Shown: positions 1,191-62,801 of the stretch, in pieces
Layout of the letters: each line of letters opens with the position of its first letter
Position numbering within the stretch: the first letter of the stretch is position 1
From: Octopus vulgaris
Lineage: Eukaryota
Direction of reading: 5' to 3'
Assembly: GCA_951406725.2 (NCBI GenBank)
Contig: OX597817.1
Location: 39,866,001-39,930,000 of the forward strand
DNA length: 64,000 bases
Made by a program: the position numbers

Positions 1191-4100
1191 TAAATGTATG
1201 TATGTATGTACATACAAGGGAGTGCTGAAAAGTTCCAAGCTTTGGATGAAATAAAATACAGGCGGATCAGTTAATTATAATTTTATTCAGCATATTCCTC
1301 TCTCAGATTTACACATTTATTACAATGGCCCTTCAGTTTTTCTATGTCCTGAGAAAGAACTCTAAAGTTTGGGCCTACAACCAGGCTTTTCACAATATCC
1401 TTAAAGCCAGGAACTTTTCAGCACACTCTTGTATGTGTGTGTGTTTATACATAAAATGTGCATGCACAATGCTTTCTGCAAATCTGTAAAGAATCTCAGT
1501 GCAAATATATATTCACTACAGAAAAATGTGTACTTAGACATATATGTAAAAGTACAAATTTGAGTGATTTAGGGCAATATTATCTTTTTGTTATTTATTC
1601 TCTCTAATTTTTTTACAGGATATGGTCAAACGTTCTGAGAAAATATCTTCTGATTGCAAACACTTTGAAGAAGCCTACAAGACTGCTGATTCTTGGATTG
1701 ATTCAGCATCCCAAAAGTTAGCCCAGTGTTCAAATGTAACCAGAGATAGAAATTTGATAGAAAAGCAGCTAGAGAAATTACAGGTATTTTTGTCTTTTTA
1801 ATTGGCTGATGTAACCTATTGTCCAGTTTAATGCTATCAGCTGGCTCTTGGGTACCTTTAACAGAGTTTATTGTGTTTATGTGTATTTTGTCTAGATATT
1901 TGATCTGAAAATAATGTTCTTCCTTTCCCACCAGTTTCAAGTGTCTGAAAGAAAAAAAAAACATTGAGCCCCTAGTTAAAGATTAATTAACTACATTTCA
2001 GATGTGTTGAGGGCAAACAGCTGAGTAGACATCATATTGAACTACCAAACATTAGTTTGTGAGTTCAAATCTGAAAAAGTATTTGTGATATTTCTGGATA
2101 ATGTTTTACTCTACATAATCTTAGATGATAGGTACTAAGTTATTTTGGATTGATAAACTGGCATCCTATCCAAGAGAGAATGTGTCTCTCATCTGCTTCC
2201 AACCAAGAAACTGAATTTAAGCATCAACTTCTTTGAGTCCTCAAAGAATTTCAGAGTTGAACTGTTGTTAGTTGAGGTATGTTGGTGCTCGTCAGACAAT
2301 TCTATGTCCTTTCAAATCTTAATTTAAAATCTGGGTTCAGTCTTAGTCCGTGGGACCTAAGTGTCTTCTATTATAGTTTCAAGCCAACTAATGCTTTATG
2401 AGTGAATTTGGTTGACAGAAACTGTGTGGAAATTATAAGACGGCGAACTGGCAAAAACGTTGGCACGCCAGGCGAAATGCTTAGCAGTATTTCGTCTGCC
2501 ATTATGTTCTGAGTTCAAATTCTGCCAAGGTCGACTTTGCCTTTCATCCTTTCTGGGTCGATAAATTATGTACCAGTTATGCACATGGGTCGATGTAATC
2601 GACTTAATGCCTTTGTCTGTCCTTGTTTGTCCCCTCTATGTTTAGCCCCTTGTGGGCAATAAAGAAATAAGAAACTGTGTGGAAGCCCATCATATATATG
2701 TGTGTGTGTGTGCATGTGTGTGTTTGTATCTGTGCTATTCATTCCACTACTGCTTGACAACTGGTGTTGGTTTGTTCCCATTCCTTGAACTTAGTGGTTT
2801 GGTCATAGAAACTAATAGACTGTTTACTGTAGTCGATTTGTTTGATTAAAACCCTTCAAAACAGTGCCCCACATAGCCACAGTCTAAATAACAAACAAGC
2901 AGAAGAGAAATATAGATTTATTTTGTAATATTCTTTTAAATTGTCTTCATTTCAAGTACACAATTTAGTTTCTTCCATTGATTATTTCTTTCAATTTCCA
3001 TCTCCTTCAAAAATTGTCTATCAATAAAAGTATCTATACTTTTTAAATACTTTATTTATATATGCTTTATATAATCTTCATATATACTTTATATATTCTT
3101 CTATATATACTTTATTCATATAGAAATCTTCTTTGTTTTCTAAATTGTGATGAGAGTCACGACACCCCCTTGCAAGAAATAGACTGGACCAAGTGATTAT
3201 AAGTAGTAGCAGTCGGAGTGATGTTTGTGTGTTAGCTTGAATTGAGTTCACAGTAAAGTTAGAAGGTGTCGGTTGGTTAGTTCATTTGAAATATTGATTG
3301 TTGTTTGATGTAGAGATTGTCAGATCATTACATTGTTATTATGGCTGCATTGTTATCTTGTTTACTGCTACAACACTGGTACAATGTATCTAAACCATCT
3401 GTCACAATATTGTGGTGGTACCATGATGATGGAGACAGAAGATACGACATTTGGTGACGAGTTTTGAAGCTCATGTAGGTTATTTAACAATTTGTTTGTG
3501 ATACAACTTGTTAAATGATGGAATACCTATTAGTCTCTATAATACAGTTTCAAAAGTAACAACAAGAACAGCAACAGGAGTTGCAGAAGCAACTAGTACA
3601 GCAACAACTACAACAATAGCAATTGCTAGAGCTATATGCAAAGAAGTCCAAAAATGCAGTAAGTTTGTTTTTGCCAGATGACATAACAAAATTCATTTAT
3701 AGCCCAGAGGAGGGTGTAACCTTTGCAGCATACTACAGAACGTATGAGAAGATTTTTAAGGAAGATTGCAAGACACTGTTGGACAAAGAAAAAGTAGGGT
3801 TATCATTATGTAAATTATCTCTGTCTGAACATGAACAATACTGTAATTTCATGTTGCCCCAAAAGTCTAGTGAAATTTGTTTTCAAGAAACAATCAAATT
3901 ACTGCCCAACATGTTTGGTGATAACTTAACCTCTCTACTTAACACTCGAATGGAGTGTTGGAATGTAACTAAAAAAAAAGGATGATGACTTTATTACATA
4001 TCCAAGAACAGTCAACACAATGTGTGAAAGTTTTAAACTTAAAGAACTTACTGCTGCGATGTTTAATTGCCTCATTTTTGTATAAGGCCTTACAGCAAAT

Positions 4101-60560: not shown

Positions 60561-62801
60561 TACATATATATATATAGTACATTTGCCACTTAAAATGGCT
60601 GACCCTTAAGAGTGGATGCTACTGTTTAAGCTACTGCAGTTACTGTTTAAGTGGCAAATGTATTTCACGATGTTGTGCAGCTATTGTTTATACCTCGCTC
60701 AGAGATTTATTATATATATATATATATAAATATAAATATAAATATTTATATGAATGTCTGTATGCACATACACATACACATTATGTAAACCCTGGGTTTT
60801 AGAATAAGACCGTGTATCTACATGGAAGAATAACTGGCCATAAAAAAACACTTCAGAATATCACATCCAACCCAATTCAGCATGATAAAGTAACCTCAAA
60901 AATTAAGGTGATGGAGCAGGCAGTGGCAGCAGCAATAGCAGCAAGAATGTCCTTGCCTTCATTTGTGTCTTATCTAAGTATCAAATTATTGCCATGAAGG
61001 TAACTGACTCCAGTACCTCTACCTCACTATTACCCACATTAATATCATGGGTGTTTGGGAGGGTTGCCTTACAGATTTGTAGTGTCCCTTCTGTGGTGTA
61101 TGACTGAGAGAAGGTTCATGCCGCTTTATATATTTACTGATTTCTTTTTATTTTACATCTTTTTTAATCATATTTTTACTGTTTATTTTTGTAAATTGTG
61201 CTGTATTTTTGATAAATGTGAACTAATGTTTGTAACACAGAAATAAATGGTAGAGAGAAAATCTGGTTTTATTATTATTAAAGAGGTGAGATGGCAGAAT
61301 TATCAGCATTTTGGACAAAATGCTTTGAGGCATTTCTTTCATCCTTTTACATTCTGAATTTAAATATCGGTTAGGTTGGTTTTGCCTTTCATCCTTTCAG
61401 GGCTGATAAAATAAGTACCATTTGAGCACTGAGGTTCATGTAATTGACTCCCCCCCTCCCCTCAAAATTGCTGGCTTTGTGCCAAAATTAGATAGGAGTG
61501 TTGATAAATATATTTGATATTTTATAAAATTGAAGAAACCTGTTAAAAAATGCTGAATGCAAACTAACTTCTGAAATGAATTTTTGAGTTTTAATGCAAC
61601 CAAATTTCAAATTTATATTTTATCTTTTCTTATAACTTTGTTTCATTAATTTCATTTTACAAAATCTTTGCTTAAAGTTAGAAACATTTTCCAATATTCC
61701 GTTTTGATAATTTTTTTTTTTTGTTTTATTTTGTCTTATCCTTGCAGCATATTATCAAAAGTCTTGATAAGTCTTGTGAAGAACACACAACATTCCAGAC
61801 ATGCCAAAAACAATTTGATCAATGGCTTCTCCAGACATCTTTGAGATTAATGTCACATAACACACTAGATGTTTCGACTATGGAAGTTACTGAACAGCAT
61901 GTACAAATCCATCAAGTTAGTACCATCATATTTCTTTCGTGTTTCCATGATACAATTATGTTTTGTGATCTATTGACTTGTGAAAACTGTTTCTATGCTA
62001 TAATTTAGTGAGTTTACACTGCAATGGTTTAATATTGACTTCTTATGCTTCACAGCCTATGATTCAATGATAATTCAAGCCCATAATTGTAAACTAACAA
62101 AACTAATAGTAATTATAATTATAGTAGATGTTCAGAGTGGTGAAATGTATCTCTGTATGTATGGTAGCTACTAACTGATATTAGGTTTAGCCATTGAGAA
62201 TTTCCTTTTTTCTTTTAACAAATGTAATGATGTAGAAAAGTTATGAATATCCTTGAAGTTAATAGGGTTCTAACTCATCCAATGACTGTGACTCTCTAGT
62301 ATAGTTTATATCAATCAACTAATTAATTAATTAGTCATTAATTAGTGTAACATATATATATGCTAATATTGAACAGTGAAAATGAGTACTCAACACCACA
62401 TTGGTAGATAATATTCTTTATTTGAGGTTTAACCAAGCAACCGATAGTTTCTCCAAAATGGGGACAAGTACCAACACTTCTATGTGATTTGCGCTTGAAG
62501 ATCTCTTTACATGAAACTATTGTTTGTCTTGTTAACCCACAAAATGAGTGTGTATATATATATATATATAATTTACTAATTATATACTATTTATTTATTA
62601 TTTCGTACTTTATTTAGTGCTAGGTAAATGTTTTATCGTATATTTAATTTTTTTCTATATGGTATGATTTAATTATATCATTGTTGAATTGCTACATGGT
62701 GGTTCTTCTTTAATTTATATACATATATTATATAGTGTGAAATTTGATTTAGTATTACTAAATTGAATTTTTCCCTGTAAGTTTAGAATCATATTCCCTG
62801 T

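What the first reader, a model, noticed from the sequence alone, without database searches (positions are those of the whole stretch)
1619..61915. Strict three-exon periodicity: an all-phase-0 165/327/~153-nt triplet encodes a two-spectrin-repeat unit
Seen: exon lengths are 165,327,153 | 165,327,153 | 165,327,141 | 165,327,153 | 165,327,156 | 168. Every intron is phase 0. All five long exons are exactly 327 nt although their protein sequences are very divergent. The protein alternates two repeat types: type X usually has helix A opening H-x-x-[FY] (HEVY, HNDY, HEIF, HTTF), while type Y opens W-x-x-[FY] (WSDY, WEKF, WEQF, WENF, WQDY) followed by L-x-[ED]-K-[KC]-like motifs. Introns fall after helix A in every repeat, but at the C/A junction only in every second repeat. 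Inference: the rod grew by tandem duplication of a ~215-aa XY cassette under strong length constraint. Any exon can be skipped in frame. Skipping one 327-nt exon, or an adjacent 153+165 pair, removes about one repeat; skipping a triplet removes two. The gene could therefore be a splice-tunable molecular ruler for nucleus-cytoskeleton tethering.
Basis: partly seen in the sequence, partly recalled or inferred. Interest (0 to 1): 0.75.

Follow-up and report, generated by a model that had tools for sequence, protein, structure and literature searches.

The report
Ancient two-repeat exon pattern in nesprin
The window holds sixteen exons of a giant nesprin-1/MSP-300-type gene, and their repeating 165/327/153-base pattern is real but is an old inherited trace of how the protein's rod was built, with no evidence so far that splicing uses it to tune the rod's length.

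Summary
Sixteen + strand exons (1619-61915) have the stated lengths. All are phase 0 and all have AG/GT splice sites.

They encode the last five of 16 tandem two-repeat (X-Y, about 215 aa) cassettes in the spectrin-repeat rod of a nesprin-1/MSP-300 orthologue, plus the first exon after the array.
- Collinearity: the exons map collinearly onto named mollusc orthologues. The offset drifts by no more than 2 aa over 1178 aa.
- X and Y classes: they are distinct, both in the window and in a tree of the 32 Lymnaea repeats, where one branch with support 100 separates them.
- Age of the array: it has 16 cassettes in a gastropod and a nemertean, with identical cassette lengths in 15 of 15 spacings. It has about 15-16 in arthropods and about 6-7 in chordates, and none in two spectraplakin controls.
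- Age of the introns: a 55-aa segment that differs between two duck nesprin-1 isoforms coincides exactly with a 165-nt-type unit. At least those two intron positions therefore predate the split of protostomes and deuterostomes.

Cassette duplication under a length constraint is supported, but it is ancient rather than lineage-specific. The "splice-tunable ruler" idea could not be tested here and has no support.

Spliced (joined) models were deliberately not built, searched or folded.

The parts
1619..1783 (+). E1, 165 nt, phase 0/0. X-type unit: end of helix C / helix A, the A-B loop and the start of helix B. Cassette 12 of the array.
   Evidence: AG/GT, open frame; collinear with mollusc orthologues at 29-42% identity.
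6709..7035 (+). E2, 327 nt. Rest of X helix B, X helix C running into Y helix A, and the start of Y helix B. Cassette 12.
   Evidence: PF25034 32.2 bits, PF00435 18.5 bits; 39-45% identity, collinear; corresponds to Lymnaea unit 4788.
11134..11286 (+). E3, 153 nt. Rest of Y helix B and most of helix C. Cassette 12.
11633..11797 (+). E4, 165 nt, X-type. Cassette 13.
   Evidence: 40-49% identity to mollusc orthologues.
18493..18819 (+). E5, 327 nt. Cassette 13.
   Evidence: PF25034 32.0 bits..
20090..20242 (+). E6, 153 nt. Cassette 13.
   Evidence: Spectrin profile positions 45-92, weak; 40-50% identity.
33383..33547 (+). E7, 165 nt, X-type. Cassette 14. Follows a 13,140-nt intron.
   Evidence: the constant offset favours 55 aa over the alternative donors at 33535 and 33538.
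38951..39277 (+). E8, 327 nt. Cassette 14.
   Evidence: PF25034 23.1 bits; 58% identity to the single-ORF record P0118..
43018..43158 (+). E9, 141 nt, the short Y unit of 47 aa. Cassette 14.
   Evidence: weak collinear hits; a 211-aa spacing at the same cassette in Lymnaea, Pinctada, Gigantopelta and Babylonia. Not hit by tblastn.
44756..44920 (+). E10, 165 nt, X-type. Cassette 15.
   Evidence: PF25034 17.6 bits..
46976..47302 (+). E11, 327 nt. Cassette 15.
   Evidence: PF25034 24.1 bits, PF00435 23.7 bits..
51234..51386 (+). E12, 153 nt. Cassette 15.
   Evidence: Spectrin profile positions 46-89, 17.9 bits..
53756..53920 (+). E13, 165 nt, X-type. Cassette 16.
   Evidence: a one-residue Q difference between two Babylonia isoforms falls at the E13|E14 boundary.
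55940..56266 (+). E14, 327 nt. Cassette 16, the last strong unit of the array.
   Evidence: PF25034 33.3 bits, PF00435 31.5 bits (above the 29.9 cut-off); 41-47% identity; model pLDDT 87.3, helices at 2-26, 29-90 and 94-108.
57461..57616 (+). E15, 156 nt. One codon longer than in the mollusc orthologues. Cassette 16.
   Evidence: the offset shifts by 1 after it; hit by one of three orthologue queries.
61748..61915 (+). E16, 168 nt. X-type unit of the first repeat after the 16-cassette array.
   Evidence: 29-49% identity; homology runs to 61915-61918. The donor is not checkable by a downstream exon.

Best explanation
The 16 exons are a constitutive stretch of the central rod of a nesprin-1/MSP-300-type giant spectrin-repeat protein. 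They cover cassettes 12-16 of a 16-cassette array, plus the first exon beyond it.

Each cassette is two unlike spectrin repeats, X of 109 aa and Y of about 106 aa, carried on three phase-0 exons. The 165-nt exon holds the tail of helix C, helix A, the A-B loop and about 15 residues of helix B of X. The 327-nt exon holds the rest of X and the same first part of Y. The roughly 153-nt exon holds the rest of Y.

The periodic exon pattern is a fossil of how the array was built. A three-exon unit (possibly a six-exon, two-cassette unit) was duplicated in tandem together with its introns before the protostome-deuterostome split. Selection on repeat length has since kept exon lengths nearly fixed. The likely reasons are the short loops and a helix that runs unbroken from one repeat into the next.

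Shown: the exons, their phases, the X/Y classes, the orthology and the age of the array.
Inferred: that the protein is a spacer between an actin-binding end and a nuclear-envelope or other anchoring end, and that these exons are all normally included.
For: - Exons and splice sites.
- Repeat register. In the 327-nt exons, residues about 4-61 match Spectrin profile positions 48-104 and residues 66-109 match positions 2-44. The 153-nt exons match positions 45-92.
- Spectrin type: the profile of the five long exons hits dystrophin chain 9c3c_D at E 2.8e-33.
- Identity: 15 of 16 exons are collinear on a Strigamia CH-domain protein whose relatives are named MSP-300 or nesprin-1. They are collinear with 8 mollusc orthologues within 2 aa.
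- X/Y classes in the window: only 1 of 462 label splits (helix-A parts) and 2 of 252 (B/C parts; the observed split and its mirror) reach the observed within-class excess.
- X/Y classes in orthologues: a profile built only from the window's five long exons gives alternating strong (55-90 bits) and weak (0-22 bits) hits spaced 109+106 aa. In a tree of the 32 Lymnaea repeats, X and Y are split by one branch with SH-aLRT 100, and 0 of 500 shuffles do as well.
- Age: Lymnaea and Lineus cassettes pair by index in 14 of 16 cases, and their lengths are equal in 15 of 15 spacings. A duck isoform difference of 55 aa at 2826-2880 equals the projected 165-type unit exactly, at 40.4 bits.
- Donor position elsewhere: in 8 of 8 short single-ORF records, homology ends at the 327-exon donor position and is followed by V.
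- No recent copying: no nucleotide similarity between exons.
Against: - No transcript data were available, so constitutive inclusion is assumed.
- CH and KASH domains lie outside the window, so the tethering role rests on orthology alone.
- Mollusc CH-type orthologues end without a KASH-like tail, and one gastropod has two paralogues at 71% identity. Which paralogue this is remains open.
- Each 327-nt exon alone is below the PF25034 cut-off (23-33 bits against 35).
- Two unnamed ORF-type records carry a 165-type and a 327-type unit in one open frame, so that intron is not universal.
- Whether the 327-nt exon is undivided in vertebrates was not established.
- The trees are 'quick' searches with many unresolved forks.
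Confidence: 0.85

Rival explanations
1. The all-phase-0 triplet architecture is used by regulated exon skipping to set rod length in steps of one repeat (327 nt, or 153+165 nt) or two repeats (one triplet). This would make a splice-tunable ruler between nucleus and cytoskeleton.
For: - All exons are symmetric in phase.
- The intra-repeat introns sit at homologous positions in X and Y, so such skips would keep the repeat register. This is inference.
- Predicted isoforms of relatives do differ by in-frame rod segments: 55 aa in a duck nesprin-1, and 310 aa in a Babylonia nesprin-1-like protein, the latter outside the array.
Against: - No RNA evidence of any kind for this gene.
- The one in-array isoform difference seen (duck, a 165-nt unit alone) would break a repeat rather than remove one.
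- Residue-exact conservation of every cassette across phyla and one-to-one orthology argue that each cassette is individually needed.
- Passages read in PMC3388047 list only a few cassette exons in human nesprins, none of them periodic rod skipping. An introductory passage seen in PMC3646009 attributes the shorter isoforms mainly to alternative transcriptional initiation and termination.
- Symmetric phase is expected from exon duplication alone.
Confidence: 0.1
2. The periodic introns were not inherited with the duplicated cassette. They were gained independently at similar 'proto-splice' sequences after the array already existed.
For: Many exons end in AAG or CAG and begin with G or A, which resembles the preferred insertion context. 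That preference is recalled knowledge, not tested here. Two unnamed records lack the 165|327 intron.
Against: The same positions recur in all five cassettes of the window. They also recur in 8 of 8 single-ORF records, at a Babylonia boundary and in a duck exon. Repeated identical gains in so many copies and lineages are far less economical than inheritance followed by occasional loss.
Confidence: 0.05
3. The gene is not a nesprin but another spectrin-repeat giant, such as a spectraplakin (MACF1/shot), dystrophin or spectrin.
For: The profile of the long exons also hits spectraplakin-like proteins (C-termini seen; ranks) and dystrophin in the PDB. End domains are outside the window.
Against: - Collinear one-to-one mapping is to proteins named MSP-300 or nesprin-1.
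- The alternating strong/weak pattern is absent from the two spectraplakin controls, which have 0 and 1 units of 30 bits or more and no alternation.
- PF25034 is the best Pfam family for all five long exons.
Confidence: 0.03

Closest known systems
Vertebrate nesprin-1 (SYNE1)
   Same: A giant rod of spectrin repeats. The same X-Y alternation is recognisable over about 6-7 cassettes in duck, elephant shark and a tunicate. A duck 165-nt-type unit has the same boundaries. PF25034 is present.
   Different: Only 20-22% identity. There are fewer recognisable cassettes and the 215-aa periodicity is weaker (z 1.7-3.5 against 6-9). Full exon tables could not be consulted.
Arthropod MSP-300 / nesprin-1 (Drosophila Msp300 and relatives)
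   Same: Orthologous array of about 15-16 cassettes. A centipede protein is collinear with 15 of 16 window exons.
   Different: Cassette lengths drift (206-240 aa in Strigamia). Several unnamed top hits are single ORFs of about 4400 aa on contigs of 14-30 kb. This fits the very large exons of insect Msp300 genes, which is recalled knowledge and was not checked here.
Mollusc and nemertean MSP-300-like / nesprin-1-like proteins (Lymnaea, Biomphalaria, Littorina, Babylonia, Patella, Lottia, Gigantopelta, Pinctada, Lineus)
   Same: One-to-one collinear with the window's exons, with offset drift of no more than 2 aa. They share the 47-aa short unit at cassette 14 and have 16 cassettes.
   Different: 24-50% identity per exon. 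The E2 and E15 equivalents are one residue shorter. Their gene structures were not available.
Nebulin and titin super-repeats
   Same: Higher-order repeats built by duplication of multi-exon units, with a ruler role discussed (recalled knowledge; the search found 'super-repeat' used for these proteins, not for nesprin).
   Different: A different fold (nebulin modules, Ig/Fn3 domains). Their alternative splicing of repeat exons is documented, whereas none is shown here.
Dystrophin rod and in-frame exon deletions
   Same: Spectrin-type repeats. The profile of the window's long exons hits dystrophin chain 9c3c_D at E 2.8e-33. The idea of in-register hybrid repeats after exon removal comes from that field (recalled; papers only listed).
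   Different: Dystrophin exons are not periodic and are of mixed phase (recalled). No X-Y super-repeat was tested there.
C. elegans ANC-1
   Same: Described as a nesprin-1/2 orthologue with a long spectrin-like region (abstract of PMC8139857 seen in the listing).
   Different: It is recalled to carry six nearly identical repeats of about 900 residues, that is, recent copies. Here the cassettes are about 20% identical and ancient. Not compared here.

Membership tests
Nesprin-1 / MSP-300 (SYNE1 orthologues) | Rod made of spectrin-type repeats that match the nesprin-1 repeat family PF25034 | tested here: inconclusive
   All 5 long exons have PF25034 as their best family, but at 23.1-33.3 bits, under the 35-bit cut-off when each exon is scanned alone. 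Collinear relatives carry PF25034 above the cut-off. The joined protein was not scanned.
Nesprin-1 / MSP-300 (SYNE1 orthologues) | One-to-one collinearity with named orthologues | tested here: met
   The best HSP is collinear for 16 of 16 exons in Pinctada, 15 of 16 in Lymnaea, Biomphalaria and Babylonia P0281, and 7 of 16 in Strigamia. The offset is constant within 2 aa in molluscs (names).
Nesprin-1 / MSP-300 (SYNE1 orthologues) | Alternating X-Y cassette array (found here in this family, not in spectraplakins) | tested here: met
   for the window; 16 cassettes in Lymnaea and Lineus, about 15 in Strigamia and Anabrus, 6-7 in chordates, no alternation in 2 spectraplakin controls. This feature was defined here, not taken from the literature.
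Nesprin-1 / MSP-300 (SYNE1 orthologues) | N-terminal pair of calponin-homology domains | not testable with these tools
   Outside the window. Orthologues P0265-P0270 carry PF00307.
Nesprin-1 / MSP-300 (SYNE1 orthologues) | C-terminal KASH domain (transmembrane helix and PPPX tail) | not testable with these tools
   Outside the window. Gigantopelta P0273 has PF10541 and a KASH-type tail. The mollusc CH-type models end without one.
Spectrin repeat (PF00435) | Three-helix repeat of about 106 aa, with helix C continuous with the next helix A | tested here: met
   E14 scores 31.5 bits, above the 29.9 cut-off. Another 5 exons are sub-threshold at the expected profile positions. The model of E14 has helices at 2-26, 29-90 and 94-108, with pLDDT 87.3. 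PDB sequence hit to dystrophin at E 2.8e-33. The fold search of the single-exon model gave no significant match.
Splice-tuned super-repeat rulers (nebulin- or titin-like usage) | Documented alternative inclusion of whole repeat units | not testable with these tools
   No transcript data for this genome. Only predicted isoform differences in relatives were seen.

The most novel reading that the evidence does not exclude
The 16-cassette X-Y array has a further odd/even two-cassette order, and every cassette's length is conserved to the residue between phyla. The boldest reading not excluded is that it is a true molecular ruler or periodic binding lattice with a step of about 10 nm (step size recalled from spectrin-repeat dimensions). 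Its homologous phase-0 introns would then let cells remove in-register units of one or two repeats, so that the nucleus-to-cytoskeleton distance is set in quantal steps.
Probability: 0.1. Interest if true: 0.7.

Novelty: new member of a known kind. Interest (0 to 1): 0.35.

Why it matters
As a gene, this is an ordinary orthologue of a well-known family.

What the follow-up adds is that the nesprin-1/MSP-300 rod contains a deeply conserved super-repeat: 16 X-Y cassettes with one-to-one orthology across protostomes, lengths identical between a gastropod and a nemertean, and part of it recognisable in chordates. The three-exon pattern is its genomic imprint.

In the seven library searches made, I found no paper describing this. 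However, the two papers most likely to describe it were not available. Simpson and Roberts 2008 is not held. Zhang et al. 2002 was not looked up and is recalled to be in a subscription journal.

If the exact spacing is functional, it gives a concrete handle for asking what the nesprin rod measures or binds. If it is only a structural constraint, the finding is a tidy example of exon-intron structure preserving the history of a repeat protein.

Tried and rejected
- The tool's ORF listing with translations was too long. I used my own scan instead.
- A search with E14 for longer proteins found none. Only proteins of 192-2000 aa were searched, so giant proteins were out of range.
Names came instead.
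- The fold search of the single-exon model against the PDB gave 0 matches at E <= 0.001. The best TM was 0.63, to beta2-spectrin repeats 14-16, at E 2.6. An out-of-register helical fragment is uninformative in such a search.
- Literature searches for a published description of nesprin exon periodicity, intron phase or an X-Y super-repeat found nothing relevant in the listings.
- PMC3646009 has no occurrence of 'exon', 'intron', 'duplication' or 'phase'.
- PMC3632108 mentions none of the genes.
- Simpson and Roberts 2008 is not held.
- No tRNA genes and no Rfam families are in the window.
- tblastn found no additional exons in the introns or window ends.
These were E7 donors at 33535 and 33538, E11 at 46991-47317, the E16 donor at 61900, and longer E9 versions starting at 42946.
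- The ESM Atlas look-up gave nesprin-1 / spectrin-repeat clusters of 85-146 aa, commonest in Chordata. I treated this as a lead only.
- Not done on purpose: joining exons into a spliced protein for any search, fold or tree. A structure of a whole triplet was therefore not predicted.
- Not available: any eukaryotic genome or transcript collection. The genome-contig collection holds only bacteria and archaea and was not used.

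
Full report
**1. The observation**

The window has 64,000 bases and no N. I scanned the + strand for open frames of the six stated lengths, bounded by AG and GT/GC. 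This gave 228 candidates.

Splice sites:
- All 16 have an AG acceptor preceded by a pyrimidine-rich tract (fraction 0.55-0.91).
- All 16 have a GT donor: 14 gta, 1 gtg, 1 gtt.
- Introns are 346 to 13,140 nt long.
- Every exon length is a multiple of three and each exon is open from its first base. So all 15 internal introns and both flanking splice sites are phase 0.

The five 327-nt exons align without a single gap at 19-21% identity. W67, E100, K101 and L105 are invariant. The 165-type and 153-type exons align likewise.

The motif statements hold (sequences):
- H at position 13 in 4 of 6 165-type exons.
- W at the same position in 5 of 5 second halves of the long exons.
- F/Y at position 16 in 11 of 11.

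**2. What the exons encode**

I scanned each exon alone against Pfam.
- All five long exons have the nesprin-1 repeat family PF25034 as their best match, at 23-33 bits. The cut-off is 35, so each is sub-threshold on its own.
- Residues about 4-61 of the long exons match positions 48-104 of the Spectrin profile. Residues 66-109 match positions 2-44.
- Two of the 153-nt exons match positions 45-92.
- E14 passes the Spectrin cut-off (31.5 against 29.9 bits).

An AlphaFold model of E14, built with the five-exon alignment, has mean pLDDT 87.3 and helices at 2-26, 29-90 and 94-108.

So a long exon is laid out as follows:
- the rest of helix B of one repeat;
- its helix C, running straight into helix A of the next repeat;
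- the A-B loop;
- about 15 residues of the next helix B.

The intra-repeat introns therefore lie about 15 residues into helix B, not at the end of helix A. The 153|165 intron lies inside the continuous C/A helix, some 8-10 residues before the formal repeat boundary.

A profile of the long exons hits dystrophin in the PDB at E 2.8e-33. A fold search with the single-exon model gave nothing significant, as expected for a fragment cut out of register.

**3. Which gene**

I searched a profile of the five long exons against 1.84 billion representatives. It found 1553 proteins at E <= 0.001. The best hits carry 15-46 matched stretches.
- Fifteen of 16 exons, each searched alone, lie on one diagonal of P0002. 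P0002 is a Strigamia maritima CH-domain protein.
- The relatives of P0002 are named muscle-specific protein 300 kDa or nesprin-1. Vertebrate nesprin-1 follows at 21-22% identity.
- An unnamed relative, P0221, led to named mollusc and nemertean orthologues.

Against eight mollusc proteins the 16 exons map with an offset that changes by at most 2 aa over 1178 aa.
- The best HSP of an exon is the collinear one for 16 of 16 exons in Pinctada.
- It is collinear for 15 of 16 in Lymnaea, Biomphalaria and a Babylonia protein.
- It is collinear for 8-10 of 16 in two nemerteans, and 7 of 16 in Strigamia.
- Identities are 24-50% per exon. This places the window nearest to molluscs but in none of the classes sampled. 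No cephalopod protein was among the 120 listed of 539 hits.

tblastn of three orthologue regions against the whole window hit only these exons, apart from one low-complexity hit. E9 was missed by all three queries and E15 by two.

The CH and KASH ends are outside the window. One gastropod has two paralogues at 71% identity, and the CH-type mollusc models end without a KASH tail. So the tethering role is inferred from family membership only.

The joined protein was never built, searched or folded.

**4. The two-repeat cassette**

Within the window I compared helix-A parts (six 165-type exons and five long-exon second halves) and B/C parts (five long-exon first halves and five short exons).
- Helix-A parts score 46.6 within class against 19.6 between classes. 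Only 1 of 462 label splits reaches this.
- B/C parts score 29.6 against 4.9. Only 2 of 252 splits reach this, namely the observed split and its mirror.
- The B/C comparison is slightly favoured by the length difference between the classes.

A profile built only from the window's five long exons gives strictly alternating hits along orthologues. Strong hits score 55-90 bits over the full length, weak hits 0-22 bits, and they are spaced 109+106 aa.

| Orthologue group | Cassettes recognised |
|---|---|
| Lymnaea, Lineus | 16 |
| Babylonia P0268 | the same alternation over about 16 strong units |
| Strigamia, Anabrus | about 15-16 |
| Duck, elephant shark, tunicate | about 6-7 |
| Two spectraplakin controls | no alternation |

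A maximum-likelihood tree of the 32 Lymnaea repeats separates the 16 X from the 16 Y by one branch with SH-aLRT 100. Label changes equal 1, and 0 of 500 shuffles do as well.

By the offsets and the units, the window holds cassettes 12-16. E16 is the first exon of the repeat that follows the array.

**5. Age and length constraint**

In a tree of whole cassettes, Lymnaea and Lineus cassettes pair by index in 14 of 16 cases. Strigamia joins the same index for cassettes 4, 6, 10, 12 and 14.

Cassette lengths in Lymnaea and Lineus are identical in 15 of 15 spacings: 215, 211, 212, 215, 214, 215, 214, 215, 214, 215, 215, 214, 215, 211, 215.

The window's spacings for cassettes 12-15 are 215, 215, 211 and 215.
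- The 47-aa short unit (E9, 141 nt) is an old, conserved feature.
- E2 and E15 are each one codon longer than in the mollusc orthologues.

In Strigamia the lengths drift between 206 and 240 aa.

Autocorrelation of whole proteins:

| Group | Signal |
|---|---|
| Four lophotrochozoans | lags 215, 429 and 644 at z 4-9 |
| Three arthropods | lag near 215 at z 2.5-3.1 |
| Four chordates | lag near 215 at z 1.7-3.5 |
| Two spectraplakins | the single-repeat lag near 109 dominates |

No exon base takes part in any nucleotide self-match of the window, so there is no recent copying or conversion.

The duplications therefore predate at least the protostome ancestor. Given the chordate cassettes, part of the array predates the bilaterian ancestor.

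**6. Are the intron positions shared?**

No eukaryotic genome collection was available, so the evidence is indirect.

(a) All 8 hits of 200 aa or less among the 150 listed look like single open frames read from genomic DNA.
- In 8 of 8, homology stops exactly at the window's long-exon donor position. It is followed by V, which is what a GT read-through gives, and then by unrelated residues.
- In two of them (P0143, P0150) a 165-type and a 327-type unit share one frame. That intron is therefore not universal, or those records are partly spliced transcripts.

(b) Two Babylonia isoforms differ by a single Q at the position of the E13|E14 boundary. This is typical of a tandem acceptor.

(c) Two duck nesprin-1 isoforms differ by a 55-aa segment at 2826-2880.
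- The window-derived 165-type profile matches this segment at 40.4 bits.
- The projected unit is exactly 2826-2880, flanked by long-exon-type units at 2665-2773 and 2881-2989.
- So both introns bounding a 165-nt exon exist at the same positions in a bird.

Whether the 327-nt exon is undivided in vertebrates stays open.

**7. How it most likely works**

Shown:
- These are real, conserved, phase-0 exons.
- They encode five X-Y pairs at the distal end of a 16-cassette array in a nesprin-1/MSP-300 orthologue.

Inferred:
- The array is a long helical spacer whose exon pattern records tandem duplication of a three-exon unit with its introns.
- Lengths are held by the short loops and by the helix that is continuous between repeats.
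- The exons are normally all included.

I put this reading at 0.85.

**8. The ruler idea**

The arithmetic is right. Because the two intra-repeat introns are homologous, skipping a long exon or a 153+165 pair would leave an in-register hybrid repeat (inference). Nothing here shows that this happens.
- The single in-array isoform difference seen, the duck 165-nt unit alone, would break a repeat.
- The passages read in PMC3388047 list only a few human nesprin cassette exons, none of them periodic.
- Symmetric phase is what exon duplication gives by itself.
- Residue-exact conservation of each cassette argues that each is needed.

I give the ruler idea 0.1.

**9. Comparison with what is known, and novelty**

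The gene belongs to a well-known family. The array and at least some of its introns are ancestral.

The X-Y super-repeat and its exact conservation were not described in any paper found in seven searches (I saw listings and abstracts only, plus passages of PMC3388047 and PMC3646009). The two papers most likely to describe it could not be consulted. Simpson and Roberts 2008 is not held. Zhang et al. 2002 was not looked up.

**10. Left open**

- Transcripts of this species.
- The rest of the gene.
- Gene structures in other animals.
- A fold of a whole triplet (joined sequence, not made).

Noticed in passing
window 13742-16854, minus strand (intron between E4 and E5): LINE-type retroelement. An ORF at 15982-16854 carries endonuclease domains (PF14529 at 53.8 bits, PF03372). 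An ORF at 13742-15202 carries reverse transcriptase PF00078 at 108.5 bits.
   Followed up: partly
window 3620-5230, plus strand (intron between E1 and E2): Remnants of an LTR-type retroelement. There is a DUF7083 ORF (66.3 bits) and an ORF with an integrase zinc-binding domain, PF17921 (45.9 bits). An ORF at 4281-4622 looks like a zinc knuckle by eye but had no Pfam hit.
   Followed up: partly
window 7100-7225, 12720-13091, 24759-24926, 26060-26276, 28008-28388, 29455-29684, 30677-30844, 35374-35755, 50700-50882, 56527-56879, 58851-59251: A dispersed intronic repeat family up to about 400 nt long, with self-match depth 6-8. No tRNA or Rfam match, so its type is unknown.
   Followed up: partly
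window about 17229-18299, 22809-24471, 31929-33237 and elsewhere: Long TA/CA-rich microsatellite-like tracts. They read as runs of Y-I-Y-I or C-V-C-V in all frames and coincide with low-GC stretches (0.26-0.27).
   Followed up: no
window 35871-36353, minus strand: A 161-aa ORF with a weak C2H2 zinc-finger match (26.2 bits against a 25.2 cut-off). It lies next to another ORF at 36319-36570 and is probably part of a mobile element.
   Followed up: no
orthologues P0265 (Lymnaea), P0276 (Lineus); window cassettes 12-16: A higher order above the cassette. Even-numbered cassettes cluster apart from odd-numbered ones in the cassette tree. Lag 429 is at least as strong as lag 215 in the Lymnaea and Lineus autocorrelations. 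In the window the highest B/C scores are between cassettes 13 and 15 (97 and 61). This suggests growth by a two-cassette, six-exon unit.
   Followed up: partly
records P0143 and P0150 (unnamed sources): A 165-type and a 327-type unit lie in one open frame with intron-like flanks. The intron between them seems absent in those organisms, or the records are partly spliced transcripts.
   Followed up: no
window 6709-7035 (E2) and 57461-57616 (E15): Each is one codon longer than its equivalent in all mollusc orthologues compared, as the offset shifts by 1 after each. The uniform 327 nt of the five long exons is therefore partly particular to this genome.
   Followed up: partly
proteins P0268 and P0281 (Babylonia areolata): Two gene models on different contigs are 71% identical over 1760 aa, and both contain the end of the X-Y array. 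At least one gastropod therefore has two paralogues. Which one the window's gene corresponds to is open.
   Followed up: partly
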